DNA of 64,000 nucleotides, from IMG/VR virus record IMGVR_UViG_3300025530_000002. The stretch is one strand, 5' to 3'. The translations under genes and the position numbers were made by a program. The DNA comes from a virus. Shown here in pieces: positions 51,476 through 63,092 of this stretch. The notes below the pieces were generated by a model. That model ran no database searches and was not told the origin of the DNA. It saw only the letters and a list, made by a program, of their open reading frames with translations. Position 1 is the first letter of the stretch; each line of letters starts with the position of its first letter.

Positions 51476-51712
51476 TCACAACGCTCGTCTTTTCTTGGCA
51501 ATGTCGTCGAAGATGTCACCGAACAGGTCCGCGGACTCCTCGTCTTGCAGGAGGAAGTCCGCGGCTTCGGCAATGGCGTGGAACGTGGCCACGTCACCGC
51601 CTTTGTCCGGATGATGTTCAGCCAGCAACGTCCGGCGTCGGGCCCGGATCACGGCCGGCGTGACCTCCGCCTCCGACAGATTCAGCAGCTTCAGCGCCGT
51701 CACTCGGTTCAT
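51476..51712 (-). CDS. J-domain-only protein (DnaJ-like co-chaperone domain)
   Basis: 78 aa. RRRTLLAEHHPDKGGD contains the HPD motif in a J-domain helix II/III context. Confidence 0.8.
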   Translation of the reverse strand: MNRVTALKLLNLSEAEVTPAVIRARRRTLLAEHHPDKGGDVATFHAIAEAADFLLQDEESADLFGDIFDDIAKKRRAL

Positions 51713-55264: not shown

Positions 55265-57127
55265 TCACACCTTGTCGTAGACCGCGCTGACGTCAACGCT
55301 CGCGTTCAAGGGCAGGCCCTGGGACCATTCCTCCGGCGTCGACATGATGCGCTTCACCGCGGCGGCCACCTCCTCGGCGGTCTCCTCGTAGGTCACCAGC
55401 ACCATCTCGTCATGCGTGGTCGAAGCTACAACCACGTCATGCGGGATGGTGTCGATGCAGCGCAACATCTGTTGCTTCAGCAGCACACAAGAAAGCGCTT
55501 GCGCGATGTTTTCCAGCAGGTATCCGCCCCATACTTTGACGGGGCCGTTCTTGCTCACATAGTGCAGCTCTCCATTGTCAGCATCGACGTACACGCGCGG
55601 GTACTTCATGTACGTCCCGTTCGGCAGGTGGATGTACCCGTTGCCGTTGAGGTAGTCGAAGCCGACCGGGCCCAGCTCGATCTGCTGCCCGCTGAGCCAG
55701 GACAGCTTCGCCGCCTCGCCCAGCCGGGTCCACAGCCGCGTGATCGGCCAGCGCGCCTGGCGCCACTTGGCCACCAGTTCTTTGGCCTCTGCCACTGACA
55801 TGTCGATCGCCGGGCCGAGGTTGCCCAGACGGAACACGTTGGACACCTTCACGCCGCCCGCGCCGTACTGACACGACAGCGACAGGACCTTGCCTACGAA
55901 ACGCTCGTCCGGGTGGTCGTCTTTGTTGACGGGGAACCCGTACACGCCCGAGGCGTTCACGGAGTACACGTCCTCGCCCTCGGCGAACGCCGTCAGCAGC
56001 TCCTGGTCATCGGCCAGCCAGGCCACCAGCCGGGCCTCGATCTGGCTGGCGTCGGCGATGACCAGGTTGCAGCCTTCCGGTGCGGCGAGCGCCGTGCGCA
56101 GTGCGGCGCCCTCGCCACGACGGGCCATGTTCTGCCAGTTCACCGAGTCGCCACCGGACCAGCGTCCGGTGCGGGCGCCCCAGTAGTTGTAGTACATGGG
56201 CGTGGGTAGGCCGACGCGCCGCAGCAGACGTTGGCTGCGGGTCTCGATCAGCGTGCTTTTTGCCGTCAGGCGGGCTTCGACCGCAGCGACCACCCTCGGG
56301 TCGGGATGCCGCAGCAGCGCTTTGAATTCCAGATCGGTCTTCGCAAACGCGTACGTCGGCTGCCCGGTGCGCGGGCTGATCTTCACTGGCGGTTCGACAC
56401 CCAGGGAGCGGAGATAGTCAGCGAACTTTTGGGCACTCCCCAGGACCGTCAGATCTACTCCCGCCGCCTGCACTGCAGCGGCGCGTCGGCCTACCTCACG
56501 CCCATGAACCTCGCGCAAGCGGGCCTCGTCCAGGTGCAGGACCGGCTCGCAATACATCCGCATGGTCAGGTCGATGATCCGCAGCTCGTCCTCCGGGACG
56601 TGCTTGACCATCTTCTCGAAGATGCCTCGCGTGAGTCGAGCGTCGTCTTCGTTGTATTCCAGCAGCAACTGGAGCAGGTCCTTGGGGATATCCTTGTACC
56701 GCAGCCCCTTCACCTGCTCCAGGGCCTGCGCCTTGACCTTGCCTGCGAACCCGTAGCGCTGACTGACAGCGTCCAGGCTGTGCGACACGTCCACACCGAA
56801 CAGCATCCGCGACATGGACTGGGTGTCCAGCCAGAACACCGGGTGCAGGTCGTAGTGGTGGGTCAGGATCAGGCCGTCGAACTGCGCATGATGCGCGCAG
56901 AACGCCGTCTCATTCCAGTTGATACTGCGCAGCAAGGGACCCACGTCCGGGCCGGCGGCGACCTTGGGGACATCCCAGGTGCTGTGCCACACCGCGACCG
57001 AGATCGCTTCGAACAGCTCATGACGGATGTAGTCCGTCATCGACAGGCTCTTGTTGCGCAGGGAGTACTCCGAGTCGTAGTACGTCTCGAAGTCGACGAC
57101 ACAGTAGTGACTGAAGGGCAGTGGCAT
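55265..57127 (-). CDS. family A DNA polymerase with 3'-5' exonuclease domain
   Basis: Internal ATG 57125-57127 (MPLPFSHYCVVDFETYY = Exo I). Motif A VIADASQIEARLVAW. Motif B RFVGKVLSLSCQYGAG. Motif C STTHDEMV. Confidence 0.92.
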   Translation of the reverse strand: MPLPFSHYCVVDFETYYDSEYSLRNKSLSMTDYIRHELFEAISVAVWHSTWDVPKVAAGPDVGPLLRSINWNETAFCAHHAQFDGLILTHHYDLHPVFWLDTQSMSRMLFGVDVSHSLDAVSQRYGFAGKVKAQALEQVKGLRYKDIPKDLLQLLLEYNEDDARLTRGIFEKMVKHVPEDELRIIDLTMRMYCEPVLHLDEARLREVHGREVGRRAAAVQAAGVDLTVLGSAQKFADYLRSLGVEPPVKISPRTGQPTYAFAKTDLEFKALLRHPDPRVVAAVEARLTAKSTLIETRSQRLLRRVGLPTPMYYNYWGARTGRWSGGDSVNWQNMARRGEGAALRTALAAPEGCNLVIADASQIEARLVAWLADDQELLTAFAEGEDVYSVNASGVYGFPVNKDDHPDERFVGKVLSLSCQYGAGGVKVSNVFRLGNLGPAIDMSVAEAKELVAKWRQARWPITRLWTRLGEAAKLSWLSGQQIELGPVGFDYLNGNGYIHLPNGTYMKYPRVYVDADNGELHYVSKNGPVKVWGGYLLENIAQALSCVLLKQQMLRCIDTIPHDVVVASTTHDEMVLVTYEETAEEVAAAVKRIMSTPEEWSQGLPLNASVDVSAVYDKV

Positions 57128-57183
57128 GTTGTACGTGCAGTGGGGTAGAAGTCCATACACCCTACTGGCGGACGCCTGCGCTG

Positions 57184-57948
57184 TCAACTGCCGTACGGCC
57201 CGCCTTCCACGAGGATGACGAAGTAGGCCATGACGCAATCGGCGCCATCTTCGTGCGGCTCGATGTCACGGAACACGAGCCTGTCACCTTTCTTCGCAGG
57301 CCGAATGTCACGGCGGATTGCCGCGTAGACCTTCCGCGTCAGCTCATCCGCGAGCTTTTCTTCCTCCGGTCGCACCATGTCGCCTTGCAGCAGCCGCGCG
57401 TAGTCATCGTGGCCACCAATGGCGCCTTGCCGCACTTCATCTTCCAGCGCGCGTCGAACGCTGGCGAAAGACTGGCGGTAGGCCGGGATGCAGAGCCAGG
57501 GGCGCGAATCGCCGCGGAAATAGTCCGGCAGACACGTGTCAACGTGAACGATAGAAACGCGCAAACCGCGCGGCTCACTTTCAACGATCATGCAATGTTG
57601 CTCGTAGCAGTCCAGGGCGTCAGAATCGAACGTGCCGGCCTCGCGCCACTGCGCCACCTTGCGGCGCCAGTCGAACGGAGATCGGAGCGATGGCGCGGGA
57701 ATGTTTAGCAGGAACGCGGCCTCTTCGCGCGACGGTGCGCGGATCGTTTGGATGTCACCGTCGCGGTCGCGCGCGCAGTACAGGGGCGCGCCGATCCCCC
57801 AATACGCGCCGCCGTCGTCATACCCGCCCGAATCGAGCTTCACCTTGAACAAATGAACCGTGCCCCGTGTCGTGTCCAGGTCCGGCGCGTTACGCCGACC
57901 CATCGGGGCGCCGTAGGTGCAGCTTACGTCTTCGAATTGCTTGCCCAT
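57184..57948 (-). CDS. conserved-looking hypothetical protein (YGAPMGR / GGYDDGGAYWG motifs)
   Basis: Internal ATG 57946-57948. 254 aa. Confidence 0.75.
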   Translation of the reverse strand: MGKQFEDVSCTYGAPMGRRNAPDLDTTRGTVHLFKVKLDSGGYDDGGAYWGIGAPLYCARDRDGDIQTIRAPSREEAAFLLNIPAPSLRSPFDWRRKVAQWREAGTFDSDALDCYEQHCMIVESEPRGLRVSIVHVDTCLPDYFRGDSRPWLCIPAYRQSFASVRRALEDEVRQGAIGGHDDYARLLQGDMVRPEEEKLADELTRKVYAAIRRDIRPAKKGDRLVFRDIEPHEDGADCVMAYFVILVEGGPYGS

Positions 57949-59643: not shown

Positions 59644-60237
59644 TCACGCGCTGAAAAAGTGCATCTGGCCGTCGGCGCCGTACTCGGCCCACCAGCCGTC
59701 GGTCTTCAGGTCGCGGGCGTAGGCGGCGTAGTCAAAGTAGTACTGCAGGTGCTCGGGCACCTCGGCCAGCGCGCCGGTTTCCTCCAGCAGCCGCGCGGCG
59801 AAGTCCTCCCAACTCTCGGCGGTTCCGTAGTAGGCGTCCTCAAAACCCTCGACCGAGCCGGTGCTGTCCAGCCAAACGCGCATGGCCTCGCCGTGCTTTG
59901 AGATGGCTTCGGCCACCTCGATCAGCCGCTCGATGCTGGGGTATTCGCCGAGGTTCGGGAAATCATCGTAGTCGTGAACCGCCCACTCCTCGGCGCTCGG
60001 CACCTTGCCGGTGCTCCCGCAACGAAGACAGCCATCGGCCTTGTGGGGATCACGATTCGCGTTGCCGGTGCCGTCGCACTCGGGGCAGTCCACTTCGACG
60101 TTCGGACACGGCGACCGTCGCAGCATGTCCGCGATCTTCTCGCGGAGGTCGTCAGCATCCAGGCCGTCCAGGTCGATCCACTCGCCATGCAGGATGCCGG
60201 CGTTGTATGAAGCAAGACACGCGATGTACACGCGCAT
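59644..60237 (-). CDS. ardA: antirestriction protein ArdA with an inserted CxxCxGxG zinc finger
   Basis: MRVYIACLASYNAGILHGEWIDL, EEWAVHDYDDF and LLEETGALAEVPEHLQYYFDYAAYARDL align by eye with Tn916 ArdA. Insertion CPECDGTGNANRDPHKADGCLRCGSTG at 60007-60087. Confidence 0.9.
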   Translation of the reverse strand: MRVYIACLASYNAGILHGEWIDLDGLDADDLREKIADMLRRSPCPNVEVDCPECDGTGNANRDPHKADGCLRCGSTGKVPSAEEWAVHDYDDFPNLGEYPSIERLIEVAEAISKHGEAMRVWLDSTGSVEGFEDAYYGTAESWEDFAARLLEETGALAEVPEHLQYYFDYAAYARDLKTDGWWAEYGADGQMHFFSA

Positions 60238-60272
60238 GGGATAGTCTCCGTTGGTCTTTCACTTGCGCCGCT

Positions 60273-61643
60273 TCACTTCTTGTACTCCTTGATCAATTCA
60301 AGGAAGTCACCCATCTTCTGGGAGCGGCTGTTGAGCTTGTCGTAGACCGGCTCTTCCACCGTGCCGCGCGCGCACACCAGCAGCAGGTTCGTGGCCTGGG
60401 TCTGACCGCCGCGGTACACCCGGTGCTTGATCTGCTTGAGCACGTCAGCCTCGTAGATCGGTGAACTGACGATCGCTGTCGTGCCGCGGGTCAGGGTCAG
60501 GCCATGGGCGCCCGTACGCGGGTGCATGAGCAGCGTGCGGTACTTGCCGTCCTGGTAGGCCTTGACGATGTCCGCGCGTTCCCGGTCCTTGGTGTCGCCA
60601 TCCAGGACGGCGAAAGAGATCCCTGCGCGGTCGAAGTACTCCGACAACAGGTCGCGCTGGTGCTTCCAGTTGAAGAACGTCAGGCTGTGCTCACGCTCCA
60701 GCACCAGCTCGGTGATCAGCTCGTACCGGAACGGGTCGACCACCTCGTACTCGTTCGGCCCGTAGTACACCGCGCCAGAGCACAGCTGCAGGAGCTTGTT
60801 GCGCACTTGCGCAGCGTGCACGGCGGTGATGTCGTGCTGCTCCAGCTGCAAGATCGACGTGCGCTCCAGCTCGTCGTACATCTTGCGCAGCTTGTTGGAC
60901 AGCGGGAAGTACTTCATGTCGACGTGGTTCTCGGGCACGTCGCGCATCACTTCCTCGAACGTGTGCCGCACCGTGACGTCACGGAGCAGGTGCATGGCCA
61001 CGTCGTGAGCGTCCGGGCGGTCCTCCCAACGCACGTGGTTGGCCATGGGGCCGACCTGGCGAGCGACCTGGACGGCGTTGCGCCACCGCGTCCAGGACCG
61101 CCCCAGCCGCTCGCCCCGGTCGATGATCATCATCGGCGTGTGCAGTTCGGTCACACTGATCGGGCACGGCGTGCCTGACAGCCCGAAACGCCAGTCGAAG
61201 TGCGGCGACAGCTTGACCGCCATCTTCGAGCGCTGGCTGACCGGGTGCTTGTACCCGGTCACCTCGTCGATGATCAGGTGGTCGAACTCCGACAGCAGCT
61301 GGGCCAGCTCGCGGGGCTTGAGCTTGGCCAGATCCCGAACGCCGTCCAGGTTCATGATCACGATGTCGGTATCGACGGCGAAGGCCGCGAGCCGGTTCCG
61401 GGCGTCCGCAATGGAGTAGGTCAGATGCGGGAAGAACCGCTCAATGTCGCTGCCCCAGGCACTTTGCATCAGCGTCTTGGGACACAGCACCAGACAACGA
61501 CCGGCAGAGGGGCGCTGGTTGTAGATGTACAGGTGTGTCAGCGTCTTGCCGGTGCCGGGGTCGGACATGTCGTACCCGATCCGGGTCCGGGAGAACTTCT
61601 CGTACGTGTACTCTTGATGCTTCCAGAGCTTGGGCTGAGACAT
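60273..61643 (-). CDS. SNF2-family (SF2) helicase
   Basis: 456 aa. Motif I DPGTGKT. Motif II LIIDEVTGYKH. C-terminal helicase lobe ...LLMHPRTGAHGLTLTRG. Confidence 0.9.
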   Translation of the reverse strand: MSQPKLWKHQEYTYEKFSRTRIGYDMSDPGTGKTLTHLYIYNQRPSAGRCLVLCPKTLMQSAWGSDIERFFPHLTYSIADARNRLAAFAVDTDIVIMNLDGVRDLAKLKPRELAQLLSEFDHLIIDEVTGYKHPVSQRSKMAVKLSPHFDWRFGLSGTPCPISVTELHTPMMIIDRGERLGRSWTRWRNAVQVARQVGPMANHVRWEDRPDAHDVAMHLLRDVTVRHTFEEVMRDVPENHVDMKYFPLSNKLRKMYDELERTSILQLEQHDITAVHAAQVRNKLLQLCSGAVYYGPNEYEVVDPFRYELITELVLEREHSLTFFNWKHQRDLLSEYFDRAGISFAVLDGDTKDRERADIVKAYQDGKYRTLLMHPRTGAHGLTLTRGTTAIVSSPIYEADVLKQIKHRVYRGGQTQATNLLLVCARGTVEEPVYDKLNSRSQKMGDFLELIKEYKK

Positions 61644-62339: not shown

Positions 62340-63023
62340 CTAGCAGGCCGCTACAGGGCACGCGCCGCTACCCCTGCTGCTGAAGGGGCAGAAGCGGCAG
62401 TTGTCAACGCTCGGGCGAGGGCGGAAGGTCTTGTCGTTGAACATGACATCGACCTCCGCGTCCCAATTGGCGAGCGCTTTCTCCAACTGGGCCTCGGTGA
62501 ACGTGATGGTCCACACGTCCTTCTTGTCCAGGTAGTACAGCTCGTTGATGTACTCCGGCATGCCGGGATACACCCGCCAGGCCGCCACGCTGTACAGCTC
62601 CATCTGCTTGAAGTGGAAATATTCGTTGCCGTACCGGCGACCGGTCTTCCAGTCACCGGTAAGCACGAATCCGTCCTGCTCGGCCACCACCAGCACGTCC
62701 TGGGTCAGCTGCAGCCAATGGCCCTCGTACGTCGGGTGCTGCAGCCACCGGTTGTTCAGGTACATAGGGACTTCGGCCTGCGCGCCACGTTCGACGAGCG
62801 CCGCGACGATGTCACTGAAGTCCTTGGCGAACGCCGGCACTTCCGTCTCCTGGAGCACTGCCGCGCGCATCTGGTCGTGTACGCGGATGCCGCGCTGTCG
62901 GGCCTCTTCGGACTTCGGGTCCGGCGGCGGCTCGGGACAACGCTCGATGTACTTCAGCTTCACCGCCATCGGGCACTGCTTGTACATCTTCCACTTCTTG
63001 AAGCTCCAATGAGGGGCGAGCAT
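62340..63023 (-). CDS. PD-(D/E)xK nuclease, Cas4/RecB-like with a Cys cluster
   Basis: 227 aa. One N-terminal Cys (YKQCP) plus a C-terminal CRFCPFSSRGSGAC, the arrangement of Cas4-type Fe-S nucleases. DWKTGRRY...FKQMELY core. Confidence 0.8.
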   Translation of the reverse strand: MLAPHWSFKKWKMYKQCPMAVKLKYIERCPEPPPDPKSEEARQRGIRVHDQMRAAVLQETEVPAFAKDFSDIVAALVERGAQAEVPMYLNNRWLQHPTYEGHWLQLTQDVLVVAEQDGFVLTGDWKTGRRYGNEYFHFKQMELYSVAAWRVYPGMPEYINELYYLDKKDVWTITFTEAQLEKALANWDAEVDVMFNDKTFRPRPSVDNCRFCPFSSRGSGACPVAAC

Positions 63024-63092
63024 CAGAACACGGTCTCCATGTAGGTTCTGGTGGAATTGTACCCCAGCAGCGACGGCTGTGTCACTTGTCGT

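What the first reader, a model, noticed from the sequence alone, without database searches (positions are those of the whole stretch)
59644..60237. ArdA antirestriction protein carrying a DnaJ-type CxxCxGxG zinc-finger insertion
The ORF matches ArdA along its whole length. VYIACLASYNAGILHGEW, WAVHDYDDF and LLEETGALAEVPEHLQYYFDYAAYARDL each align with the Tn916 protein as I remember it. Between the first domain and the HDY motif it contains CPECDGTGNANRDPHKADGCLRCGSTG (nt 60007-60087). That is two CxxCxGxG units, the signature of one zinc centre of the DnaJ cysteine-rich domain, and the canonical ArdA I recall lacks it. A J-domain-only gene lies 8 kb away (51476..51712). The phage therefore encodes two separate DnaJ-derived modules on different proteins. 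This hints that the DNA-mimic ArdA might be coupled to the DnaK system or to substrate holding.
Basis: partly seen in the sequence, partly recalled or inferred. Interest (0 to 1): 0.62.

Follow-up and report, generated by a model that had tools for sequence, protein, structure and literature searches.

The report
Zinc-ribbon ArdA with swappable loop
This phage gene is an ordinary ArdA anti-restriction DNA mimic of a large, undescribed subfamily that has a small four-cysteine zinc ribbon in its tip domain; the ribbon's loop is swapped between genes like a cassette, and nothing links it to the DnaK/DnaJ chaperones.

Summary
ORF 59644..60237 (-) is a 197-aa ArdA: Pfam E 1.3e-38, and PDB 2w82 is the only significant fold match to a model with pLDDT 95.7. 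About 38 residues sit where Tn916 ArdA has four. The insert reads CPECDGTG-(11 aa)-CLRCGSTG. The first unit is an exact CxxCxGxG; the second is CxxCGxxG.

The insert is not rare. 117 of the 120 nearest protein clusters carry it, as do 47 of 80 viral loci, 20 of 80 bacterial loci and the cultured Pseudomonas phage vB_PsyP_3MF5. It is still a minority of all ArdA: 0 of 12 and 1 of 8 in even genome samples.

The DnaK/J idea is not supported. No J domain was found in any of 45 other ArdA-bearing viral records.

The new result is that the loop between the two knuckles is a recombining cassette. Loop identity does not track backbone identity (rho 0.01). A 96-97% identical sister contig has 229 nt where this window has 52. 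A gene about 45% identical in backbone shares this loop at 80-93% nt identity. The loop is flanked by the two best-conserved stretches of the gene.

Best reading: a type I R-M inhibitor whose dispensable tip domain displays a variable loop on a zinc-stapled hairpin.

The parts
59644..60237 (-). ardA coding sequence (197 aa plus stop), a DNA-mimic anti-restriction protein with net charge -25
   Evidence: ORF. Pfam ArdA E 1.3e-38. PDB 2w82 E 1.6e-14. AF2 pLDDT 95.7. Foldseek to 2w82 probability 1.00, TM 0.56-0.65. Charge.
60246..60249 (-). GGAG ribosome-binding site, 8 nt before the ATG at 60235-60237
   Evidence: Read directly from the sequence. The start matches the N-termini of relatives (MRIYVACLASYN...).
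59995..60108 (-). Insertion in domain 1 (residues 44-81): beta-strand 47-50, zinc knuckle 1, loop, zinc knuckle 2, beta-strand 78-81. It lies between helix 28-40 and strand 85-91.
   Evidence: Gap against 2w82 and against the Pfam HMM. DSSP of the AF2 model. Conserved flanks P45 N46 V47 ... V79 P80 S81.
60064..60087 (-). Zinc knuckle 1, CPECDGTG (residues 51-58), an exact CxxCxGxG
   Evidence: Sequence. C51 and C54 conserved in at least 90% of relatives.
60031..60063 (-). Hypervariable loop NANRDPHKADG (residues 59-69), the core of the swappable cassette
   Evidence: pLDDT falls to 73 here. Mean nt identity among 60 genes is 0.27-0.38, against 0.53 for the whole gene. Loop identity does not correlate with backbone identity.
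60007..60030 (-). Zinc knuckle 2, CLRCGSTG (residues 70-77), CxxCGxxG: a degenerate copy of the family consensus CxxCxGxG
   Evidence: Sequence. C70, C73 and G77 conserved in at least 90% of relatives.
60023..60074 (-). The segment (residues about 56-72) that a different 229-nt segment replaces in a sister contig that is 96-97% identical on both sides
   Evidence: blastn of L163 against the window: L163 1-452 matches 60526-60075 at 97.1%, and L163 682-1382 matches 60022-59322 at 95.7%. Codon-wise profile.

Best explanation
The gene encodes a working ArdA, an acidic dimeric DNA mimic. It blocks type I restriction-modification enzymes by occupying the DNA groove of the M2S1 core with its domains 2 and 3. 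It belongs to a large subfamily of ArdA that the papers searched here do not describe. In this subfamily the helix-to-strand loop of domain 1, the distal tip of the rod, has become a two-stranded beta-hairpin. Two CxxC(xGxG) knuckles cap the hairpin and most likely bind one zinc through four cysteines. The knuckles and hairpin strands are a rigid, conserved scaffold. The 4-74-residue loop between the knuckles is a cassette exchanged between ardA genes by recombination across the two best-conserved stretches of the gene. The loop therefore sits at the end of the mimic that in canonical ArdA is modelled to face HsdR. The most likely purpose of the exchange is to retune or disguise that tip surface in host-specific arms races. 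It is not needed for core anti-restriction and is not linked to DnaK/DnaJ. Shown here: ArdA identity and fold, position and conservation of the Cys4 insert, its spread, and the cassette behaviour. Inferred: zinc binding, tip exposure, and adaptive value of the loop.
For: ArdA identity: plus net charge -25. Insert anatomy: strands 47-50 and 78-81 flank the knuckles, and pLDDT is 92, 73 and 95 across residues 51-80. The four Cys and the PNV / VPS flanks are conserved in at least 90% of 115 relatives.

Spread: 117 of 120 nearest 90%-identity clusters, 47 of 80 IMG/VR loci, 20 of 80 species-genome loci, at least 68 of the top 150 50%-identity clusters, and the cultured phage vB_PsyP_3MF5 ORF04 in its early region.

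Cassette behaviour: Spearman rho between backbone and loop identity is 0.013 over 7750 pairs. 24 of 36 pairs with at least 90% backbone identity have loops under 35% identical. 11 pairs with at most 60% backbone identity have loops at least 70% identical. Query against the P0002 gene is about 100% nt identical outside residues 46-80 and 11-60% inside, with 59 extra residues. Query against the P0012 gene is 80-93% nt identical over residues 43-92 and 33-67% elsewhere. The sister contig is 96-97% identical on both sides of a 52-nt to 229-nt replacement. The loop has the lowest nt identity in the gene (0.27-0.38) and is bracketed by the highest (0.69 and 0.74-0.77).

Dispensability: clean deletions (P0009, P0010) nest inside the query's own clade at 100% support, and Cys-less hairpins occur (P0071, L069, L070). 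McMahon et al. 2009 report that domain 1 projects beyond the methyltransferase core, is modelled to mimic DNA near HsdR, and can be deleted without loss of anti-restriction (PMC2731889). The insert is far less acidic than the rest (-0.06 against -0.16 charge per residue), so it is probably not part of the phosphate-mimic surface.

Selective pressure: hosts have systems that sense ArdA or Ocr and discriminate between them (bioRxiv 10.1101/2023.04.06.535777).
Against: No experiment exists on any zinc-bearing ArdA. Zinc is not modelled by AF2. I could not read model coordinates, so Cys geometry and the orientation of the ribbon relative to the dimer are inferred from secondary structure and from the 2w82 description.

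Loop variability alone also fits relaxed constraint. Mosaicism is common in phage genes generally. Ronin-type sensing works through HsdMS binding, which a tip change would not evade. Repeated loss of the insert shows it is not essential.

The prevalence figures come from top-N lists biased towards relatives of the query. In even samples of genomes the insert is rare among ArdA genes (0 of 12 and 1 of 8).
Confidence: 0.55

Rival explanations
1. Neutral structural staple. The zinc ribbon only stabilises an indel-tolerant surface loop of a dispensable domain. The loop between the knuckles varies because nothing constrains it, and the apparent cassette exchange is ordinary phage mosaicism without adaptive meaning.
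For: Domain 1 is dispensable in Tn916 ArdA (PMC2731889). The insert has been lost cleanly several times. Other ArdA lineages carry unrelated short insertions at the same site, such as PYTKQYGEV in Bacteroidota and a 12-aa Cys-less one in mycobacteriophages. pLDDT is lower in the loop.
Against: Loops fall into recurring, well-conserved types shared by backbones that are 39-56% identical. LGSW.ASAVSDERRP is 95% identical across backbones 39-45% identical, which argues for purifying selection on each type. The variable segment lies between the two most conserved nt stretches of the gene. Some loops have grown into nested Cys-rich or roughly 70-aa modules.
Confidence: 0.33
2. The CxxCxGxG module is a DnaJ-derived client-holding or DnaK-coupling element that works with the phage's 78-aa J protein (51476..51712).
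For: The motif type is that of the DnaJ CR domain. The same genome encodes a stand-alone J-like protein with HPD.
Against: PF00226 was found in 0 of 45 other ArdA-bearing viral records, including 32 with the zinc insert, with a working control. phmmer with the J protein found no credible match (one at E 0.0098) within 10 kb of ArdA in 80 viral loci. There is only one zinc centre, not the two of DnaJ. All profile scores are below Pfam cut-offs. The centre of the module is hypervariable, whereas DnaK is highly conserved. The two genes are 8 kb apart with DNA polymerase and other replication genes between them.
Confidence: 0.03
3. The ribbon confers a second biochemical activity, such as binding nucleic acid, binding another defence protein (as Ocr also inhibits BREX), or acting as a thiol/zinc redox switch that controls ArdA activity.
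For: Zinc ribbons often mediate protein or nucleic-acid contacts (general knowledge). The insert is much less acidic than the mimic body. DNA mimics can have several targets (one search shows Ocr and ArdA are recognised by several systems).
Against: There is no conserved basic or aromatic patch. Apart from the ligands and glycines nothing in the loop is conserved. No fold or profile match points to a specific activity.
Confidence: 0.07

Closest known systems
ArdA (Orf18) of Tn916, PDB 2w82; also in EcoR124I complexes 7bto/7btr
   Same: Same family and fold. It is the only significant PDB match by sequence (E 1.6e-14) and by structure (probability 1.00, TM 0.56-0.65). It has the same three-domain order, strong acidity and the C-terminal YFDY..Y.RDL block.
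   Different: Tn916 ArdA has a 4-residue linker (chain residues 39-42) where this protein has about 45 residues forming a Cys4 ribbon hairpin. Identity is 26-28%.
ORF04 'ArdA-like antirestriction protein' of Pseudomonas phage vB_PsyP_3MF5 (MT597419.1, 1828-2442; Autographiviridae)
   Same: Same subfamily, with the zinc ribbon at the same site (FPNVTVACPHC...CSHCDGYGNHTSAEEWAIHDY). It is a phage-borne gene and about 40% identical. It is a cultured isolate in which the variant could be tested.
   Different: Its loop type is different and longer (21 aa, the ETARRGMGVAEGHSFTGFY type). It lies in the T7-like early region next to the terminal repeat, whereas the window's gene sits inside a replication operon between the SNF2 helicase and the DNA polymerase.
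DnaJ cysteine-rich (CR) domain, Pfam PF00684, and Anti-TRAP, PF15777
   Same: The CxxCxGxG knuckle motif, with two knuckles presumably sharing one zinc. There are weak profile hits and local fold resemblance (33-42 columns, rmsd 1.9-3.8 A, probability 0.92-0.99).
   Different: It has one zinc centre, not two. All scores are below curated cut-offs and the Foldseek E-values are 0.1-1. There is no J domain or G/F region in the polypeptide. The inter-knuckle segment is hypervariable. The second unit here is not an exact CxxCxGxG.
Ocr (gene 0.3) of phage T7
   Same: It works alike: a phage-encoded acidic dimeric DNA mimic that blocks type I R-M (established knowledge; PMC2731889; PMC9613975).
   Different: The fold and family are unrelated, and it has no metal site.
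Target-recognition-domain shuffling in type I HsdS subunits (analogy only)
   Same: Variable modules are exchanged by recombination across conserved flanking segments of one gene (established knowledge of type I R-M). Here the variable loop lies between the gene's two most conserved stretches.
   Different: It is a different protein on the opposite side of the conflict. The module here is a 4-74-residue loop, not a DNA-reading domain, and its target is unknown.

Membership tests
ArdA antirestriction protein (Pfam PF07275) | Profile match above the curated gathering score over most of the model | tested here: met
   133.4 bits against a cut-off of 27, E 1.3e-38, HMM positions 1-144 of 155. The genome search gave 132.5 bits.
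ArdA antirestriction protein (Pfam PF07275) | Elongated three-domain fold of Tn916 ArdA (2w82) | tested here: met
   AF2 model with pLDDT 95.7 and pTM 0.84. 2w82 chains are the only PDB hits with E <= 0.001, at probability 1.00 and TM 0.52-0.65. Top BFVD hits are antirestriction proteins.
ArdA antirestriction protein (Pfam PF07275) | Strongly acidic surface consistent with DNA mimicry | tested here: met
   Net charge -25 over 197 residues. Subfamily mean is -29.5, or -0.16 per residue outside the insert. The spatial pattern of carboxylates was not checked because no coordinates were available.
ArdA antirestriction protein (Pfam PF07275) | Dimerises and inhibits type I R-M by binding the M2S1 core | not testable with these tools
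   Needs biochemistry or a multimer model. The domain 3 block YFDYAAYARDL aligns with YIDYQAYGRDL of 2w82.
DnaJ cysteine-rich domain (Pfam PF00684 DnaJ_CXXCXGXG) | Four CxxCxGxG repeats forming two zinc centres | tested here: not met
   There are only two units, enough for one centre, and one of them is CxxCGxxG.
DnaJ cysteine-rich domain (Pfam PF00684 DnaJ_CXXCXGXG) | Profile match above the gathering score | tested here: not met
   14.6 bits against 32.7, E 0.042. The best relative tested reached 27.3 bits.
DnaJ cysteine-rich domain (Pfam PF00684 DnaJ_CXXCXGXG) | Local fold of a CR-type zinc knuckle pair | tested here: inconclusive
   Foldseek BFVD local matches to a 'DnaJ-like protein', a 'CR-type domain-containing protein' and a mimivirus DnaJ: 38-42 columns, rmsd 3.1-3.8 A, probability 0.92-0.99, but E 0.11-0.67.
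Anti-TRAP (Pfam PF15777) | Profile match above the gathering score | tested here: not met
   17.4 bits against 32, E 0.0045. Relatives reach up to 29.6 bits. A local fold match covers 33 columns at rmsd 1.9 A with E 0.95.
   PF00226 was found in 0 of 45 other ArdA-bearing viral records at E <= 0.01, while the control rang in 12 of 14 genomes. phmmer of the J protein against 80 loci of +/-10 kb found only the window itself plus one marginal hit at E 0.0098.
Cys4 zinc ribbon (generic) | Two CxxC knuckles at the tips of a beta-hairpin, with the four Cys conserved | tested here: met
   C51, C54, C70 and C73 are each conserved in at least 90% of 115 relatives. 110 of 120 relatives have at least two CxxC. 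Strands 47-50 and 78-81 flank the knuckles in the model. Metal binding itself is not testable here.

The most novel reading that the evidence does not exclude
The zinc ribbon is a display scaffold for an adaptive, recombination-shuffled specificity loop at the two tips of the ArdA dimer. Different cassettes might let the mimic escape host sensors that detect anti-restriction proteins (PARIS-, EcoR22I- or Ronin-like abortive-infection triggers). Alternatively they might engage different HsdR variants or additional defence proteins. ArdA would then carry a variable, arms-race-driven module analogous to the swappable TRDs of its HsdS target.
Probability: 0.3. Interest if true: 0.7.

Novelty: new variant of a known kind. 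Interest (0 to 1): 0.42.

Why it matters
ArdA is the textbook DNA mimic that lets plasmids, transposons and phages cross restriction barriers, and it is treated as one uniform fold. This work shows a large branch of the family with a conserved zinc-stapled hairpin whose loop is exchanged like a cassette. That branch is found in phages and proviruses of Xanthomonadales, alpha-proteobacteria, Pseudomonas, Planctomycetota and others. If the loop is adaptive, it marks a second interaction surface on ArdA. It also gives a handle on how anti-restriction proteins co-evolve with host systems that sense them. If the loop is neutral, the result is still useful for annotation: the insert is normal for this subfamily, and its DnaJ-like motif should not be read as a chaperone link.

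Tried and rejected
1. DnaK/J coupling was rejected on co-occurrence.

2. I tried to show membership in DnaJ CR or Anti-TRAP by profile. All hits are below cut-offs, both here and in six relatives.

3. Four literature searches looked for a zinc finger or zinc ribbon in ArdA (and ArdA passages in PMC5512222 and PMC10746416). Nothing relevant was found, so absence from the searchable open literature is all I can claim.

4. I tried to decide gain versus loss from a backbone tree. The deep branches are weak. 11 state changes are needed, of which 6 are forced by well-supported branches. Because cassettes recombine, the backbone tree cannot give the history of the insert.

5. The 72-aa nested loop of P0002 found no PDB sequence match and no Pfam family.

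6. I looked for close relatives of the phage among GenBank phages by megablast of 14 kb. There was no match.

7. Model coordinates are not exposed, so Cys-Cys distances and ribbon orientation could not be measured.

8. PMC9613975 was read for domain 1 contacts. It only shows that ArdA also inhibits PacII.

Full report
**What is there.** The window is almost all of a complete 64,411-bp virus record with direct terminal repeats, at 65% G+C. It is a tailed phage. A portal protein and a 2,205-aa virion protein lie on the + strand. A replication block lies on the - strand: primase, family-A DNA polymerase at 55268-57238, SNF2 helicase at 60273-61643, and an exonuclease at 62343-63023.

The ORF 59644..60237 (-) encodes 197 aa. 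It starts 35 nt after the helicase stop, has a GGAG 8 nt before its ATG, and is followed 12 nt later by a 93-aa ORF. It therefore sits inside the replication operon. A sigma-70-like site at 63085-63056 (-) is the nearest promoter-like match upstream, and no terminator-like site lies between them on that strand.

**It is an ArdA.**
- Pfam ArdA scores 133 bits against a cut-off of 27, E 1.3e-38.
- PHROG 2059 'anti-restriction protein' scores E 4e-32.
- The only solved relative is Tn916 Orf18 ArdA, 2w82, at E 1.6e-14.
- An AlphaFold2 model built on 115 aligned relatives has mean pLDDT 95.7 and pTM 0.84.
- The only significant PDB fold matches to that model are the 2w82 chains, at probability 1.00 and TM 0.52-0.65.
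- Its best BFVD matches are viral antirestriction proteins.
- Net charge is -25, as expected for a DNA mimic.

**The insertion.**
- *Position.* The 2w82 alignment breaks between query residues 36 and 82, which correspond to chain residues 38 and 43. The Pfam model has no states for about 35 residues.
- *Structure.* In the model the order is strand 2-7, strand 18-22, helix 28-40, then strand 47-50, CPECDGTG (51-58), an 11-residue loop, CLRCGSTG (70-77), strand 78-81, and then the canonical third strand 85-91. The insertion is thus a beta-hairpin capped by two Cys knuckles, which is a Cys4 zinc ribbon. It lies in the helix-to-strand loop of domain 1. pLDDT is 92 and 95 in the ten-residue blocks that hold the knuckles and 73 in the block that holds the loop.
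Only the first unit is a strict CxxCxGxG. The second is CxxCGxxG, although CxxCxGxG is the family consensus at both sites.

**Is it DnaJ-type?** It is at the level of the motif, but not as a family member.
- DnaJ_CXXCXGXG scores 14.6 bits against a cut-off of 32.7. Anti-TRAP scores 17.4 bits against 32.
- Relatives reach 27.3 and 29.6 bits, still below the cut-offs.
- Foldseek finds local resemblance of 33-42 columns to viral 'DnaJ-like', 'CR-type' and Anti-TRAP proteins. Probabilities are 0.92-0.99 but E-values are 0.1-1.
- A DnaJ CR domain has four repeats and two zinc centres. This module has two repeats and room for one centre.

**How common is it?** Among close relatives it is the rule.
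- *Nearest protein clusters.* 117 of the 120 nearest 90%-identity clusters have a Cys-rich insert at this site. 110 have at least two CxxC, and 49 have two exact CxxCxGxG. Where sources give a name, it is simply 'antirestriction protein ArdA'. The organisms include Xanthomonas citri (one cluster seen on 557 contigs), Stenotrophomonas, Lysobacter, Rhodanobacter, Pseudomonas, Paraburkholderia, Pseudosulfitobacter and Bremerella.
- *Viral loci.* 47 of the best 80 IMG/VR loci have it. Many are proviruses of 40-46 kb.
- *Bacterial genomes.* 20 of the best 80 species-genome loci have it. They come from Xanthomonadales, Rhizobiales, Rhodobacterales, Sphingomonas, Planctomycetota, Myxococcota and a Paceibacterota MAG.
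- *Cultured phage.* The Autographiviridae phage vB_PsyP_3MF5 carries it in its early region.
- *50%-identity clusters.* 3,167 ArdA-like clusters exist at E <= 0.001. At least 68 of the top 150 have two CxxC at the site.
- *The family as a whole.* Here it is a minority. In an even sample of 400 Pseudomonadota genomes, all 12 full-length ArdA matches were 465-474 nt, so none had an insert. In 300 genomes of the Lysobacter order, one of eight had it.
- *Previous description.* Four searches of the open literature found no description of it.

**Losses and relatives of the insert.** Two proteins inside the query's own clade (100% support) have clean deletions: P0009 and P0010, reading ...RRSPCP-(T)AEE... 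Several others keep the hairpin strands without cysteines, for example FPNVTVEHPETGEEVPS in P0071, L069, L070 and six viral loci. On a backbone tree the state needs 11 changes, of which 6 are forced by well-supported branches. Because of the recombination described next, that tree cannot separate gains from losses.

**The loop is a cassette.** This is the main new result.
1. Across 125 zinc-bearing proteins, loop identity is unrelated to backbone identity (Spearman 0.013, p 0.25, 7,750 pairs). 24 of 36 pairs with at least 90% identical backbones have loops under 35% identical. Eleven pairs with at most 60% identical backbones share loops at least 70% identical. For example, LGSW.ASAVSDERRP is 95% identical across backbones that are 39-45% identical.
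2. The DNA shows the same pattern. The gene of P0002 is about 100% identical to the window's gene outside residues 46-80 but 11-60% identical inside, with 59 extra residues. The gene of P0012, about 45% identical in backbone protein sequence, is 80-93% nt identical to the window over residues 43-92 and 33-67% identical elsewhere.
3. The contig of P0002 matches window 60526-60075 at 97.1% and 60022-59322 at 95.7%. In between, 229 nt replace the window's 52 nt. A sister phage therefore differs by a clean replacement between the two knuckles.
4. Over 60 distinct zinc-bearing genes, the loop has the lowest nucleotide identity of the gene (0.27-0.38). It is bracketed by the highest values: 0.69 at PNVEVDC and 0.74-0.77 at SAEEWAVHDY, against a gene mean of 0.53. 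This is the layout expected if the flanks serve as recombination arms.
5. Loop length ranges from 4 to 74 residues. Some loops hold a second Cys-rich module or a roughly 70-aa segment with no known relatives.

**What it probably does.** From McMahon et al. 2009 (PMC2731889):
- domains 2 and 3 bind the methyltransferase core;
- domain 1 projects beyond the core and is modelled to mimic the DNA contacted by HsdR;
- domain 1 can be deleted without losing anti-restriction.

The insert sits in that dispensable tip domain. It is much less acidic than the rest of the protein (-0.06 against -0.16 charge per residue), and it has been lost repeatedly. I infer that the core function is ordinary ArdA anti-restriction. 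The ribbon would then be a zinc-stapled scaffold that presents a variable loop at each end of the dimer.

Recurrent, conserved loop types shared across divergent backbones argue that the loops are selected rather than merely tolerated. Hosts are known to sense ArdA and Ocr and to discriminate between them (Ronin, EcoR22I, PARIS; bioRxiv 10.1101/2023.04.06.535777). That gives a plausible pressure, but the partner of the loop is unknown. The neutral alternative is not excluded, and I give it about one third.

**The chaperone idea.** The 78-aa gene at 51476..51712 (-) does have HPD and a sub-threshold DnaJ match. However, a J domain was found in none of 45 other ArdA-bearing viral records. 32 of those have the zinc insert and most are at least 90% complete, and the control worked. 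No credible relative of the J protein lies within 10 kb of ArdA in 80 viral loci. The J gene is therefore a peculiarity of this phage, not a partner of the insert.

**Limits.**
- There is no wet-lab evidence for any zinc-bearing ArdA.
- Zinc and the dimer were not modelled, and no coordinates were available.
- Prevalence counts come from ranked top-N lists.
- The tree used a quick search without a mixture model.

**Verdict.** The gene is a member of a widespread ArdA variant that I could not find described in the open literature searched here. The feature most worth following up is the cassette-like loop.

Noticed in passing
window 51476-51712 (-): Stand-alone 78-aa J-like protein with HHPDKGG. 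Its Pfam DnaJ match is only 21.6 bits against a cut-off of 27.8. It is unique to this phage among 46 ArdA-bearing viral records searched with PF00226.
   Followed up: partly
L163:290-1060 (P0002); also P0005 and P0007: Sister ArdA alleles of 256-257 aa carry a 74-residue loop between the two zinc knuckles (NPWAAGDGHGTTHHSTRDDAVRATLAALDRAQDEERLGSDFFIEKGLAKRAIASGADVAYVGRARFGVWLVG). It has no Pfam or PDB sequence match and may be a small nested domain of unknown function.
   Followed up: partly
P0039, P0066 and L121 (Stenotrophomonas-type ArdA, 237-241 aa): These carry an 80-residue insert with 10-11 cysteines, with additional CxxC pairs nested inside the ribbon. Probably a second zinc site has been built into the loop.
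   Followed up: no
L109, L124, L128, L131, L133, L151; P0071, L069, L070: Cys-less versions keep the hairpin strands (FPNVTVEHPETGEEVPS / ...HDGQMVPS). They are either remnants or precursors of the zinc ribbon. Three of them (L131, L133, L151) lie in viral records of 67-73 kb, two of which have direct terminal repeats, a size similar to this phage.
   Followed up: no
L006 (Streptomyces sp. NPDC048002, 1,251-bp contig): This ArdA is identical in sequence to those of Stenotrophomonas maltophilia but sits on a tiny contig of a Streptomyces assembly. It is probably contamination of that assembly.
   Followed up: no
window 63056-63085 (-): Sigma-70-like site GTGACA-18-TACAAT (10 of 12 matches) upstream of the exonuclease / SNF2 helicase / ArdA gene run. 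It is a candidate operon promoter, based on a consensus match only.
   Followed up: no
L082-L123 (IMG/VR records of 40-46 kb): In many records of 40-46 kb, classed as proviruses or linear, the zinc-bearing ardA lies within a few kb of one end of the record. In phage vB_PsyP_3MF5 it likewise sits about 1.8 kb from the left terminal repeat, a position like T7 gene 0.3.
   Followed up: partly
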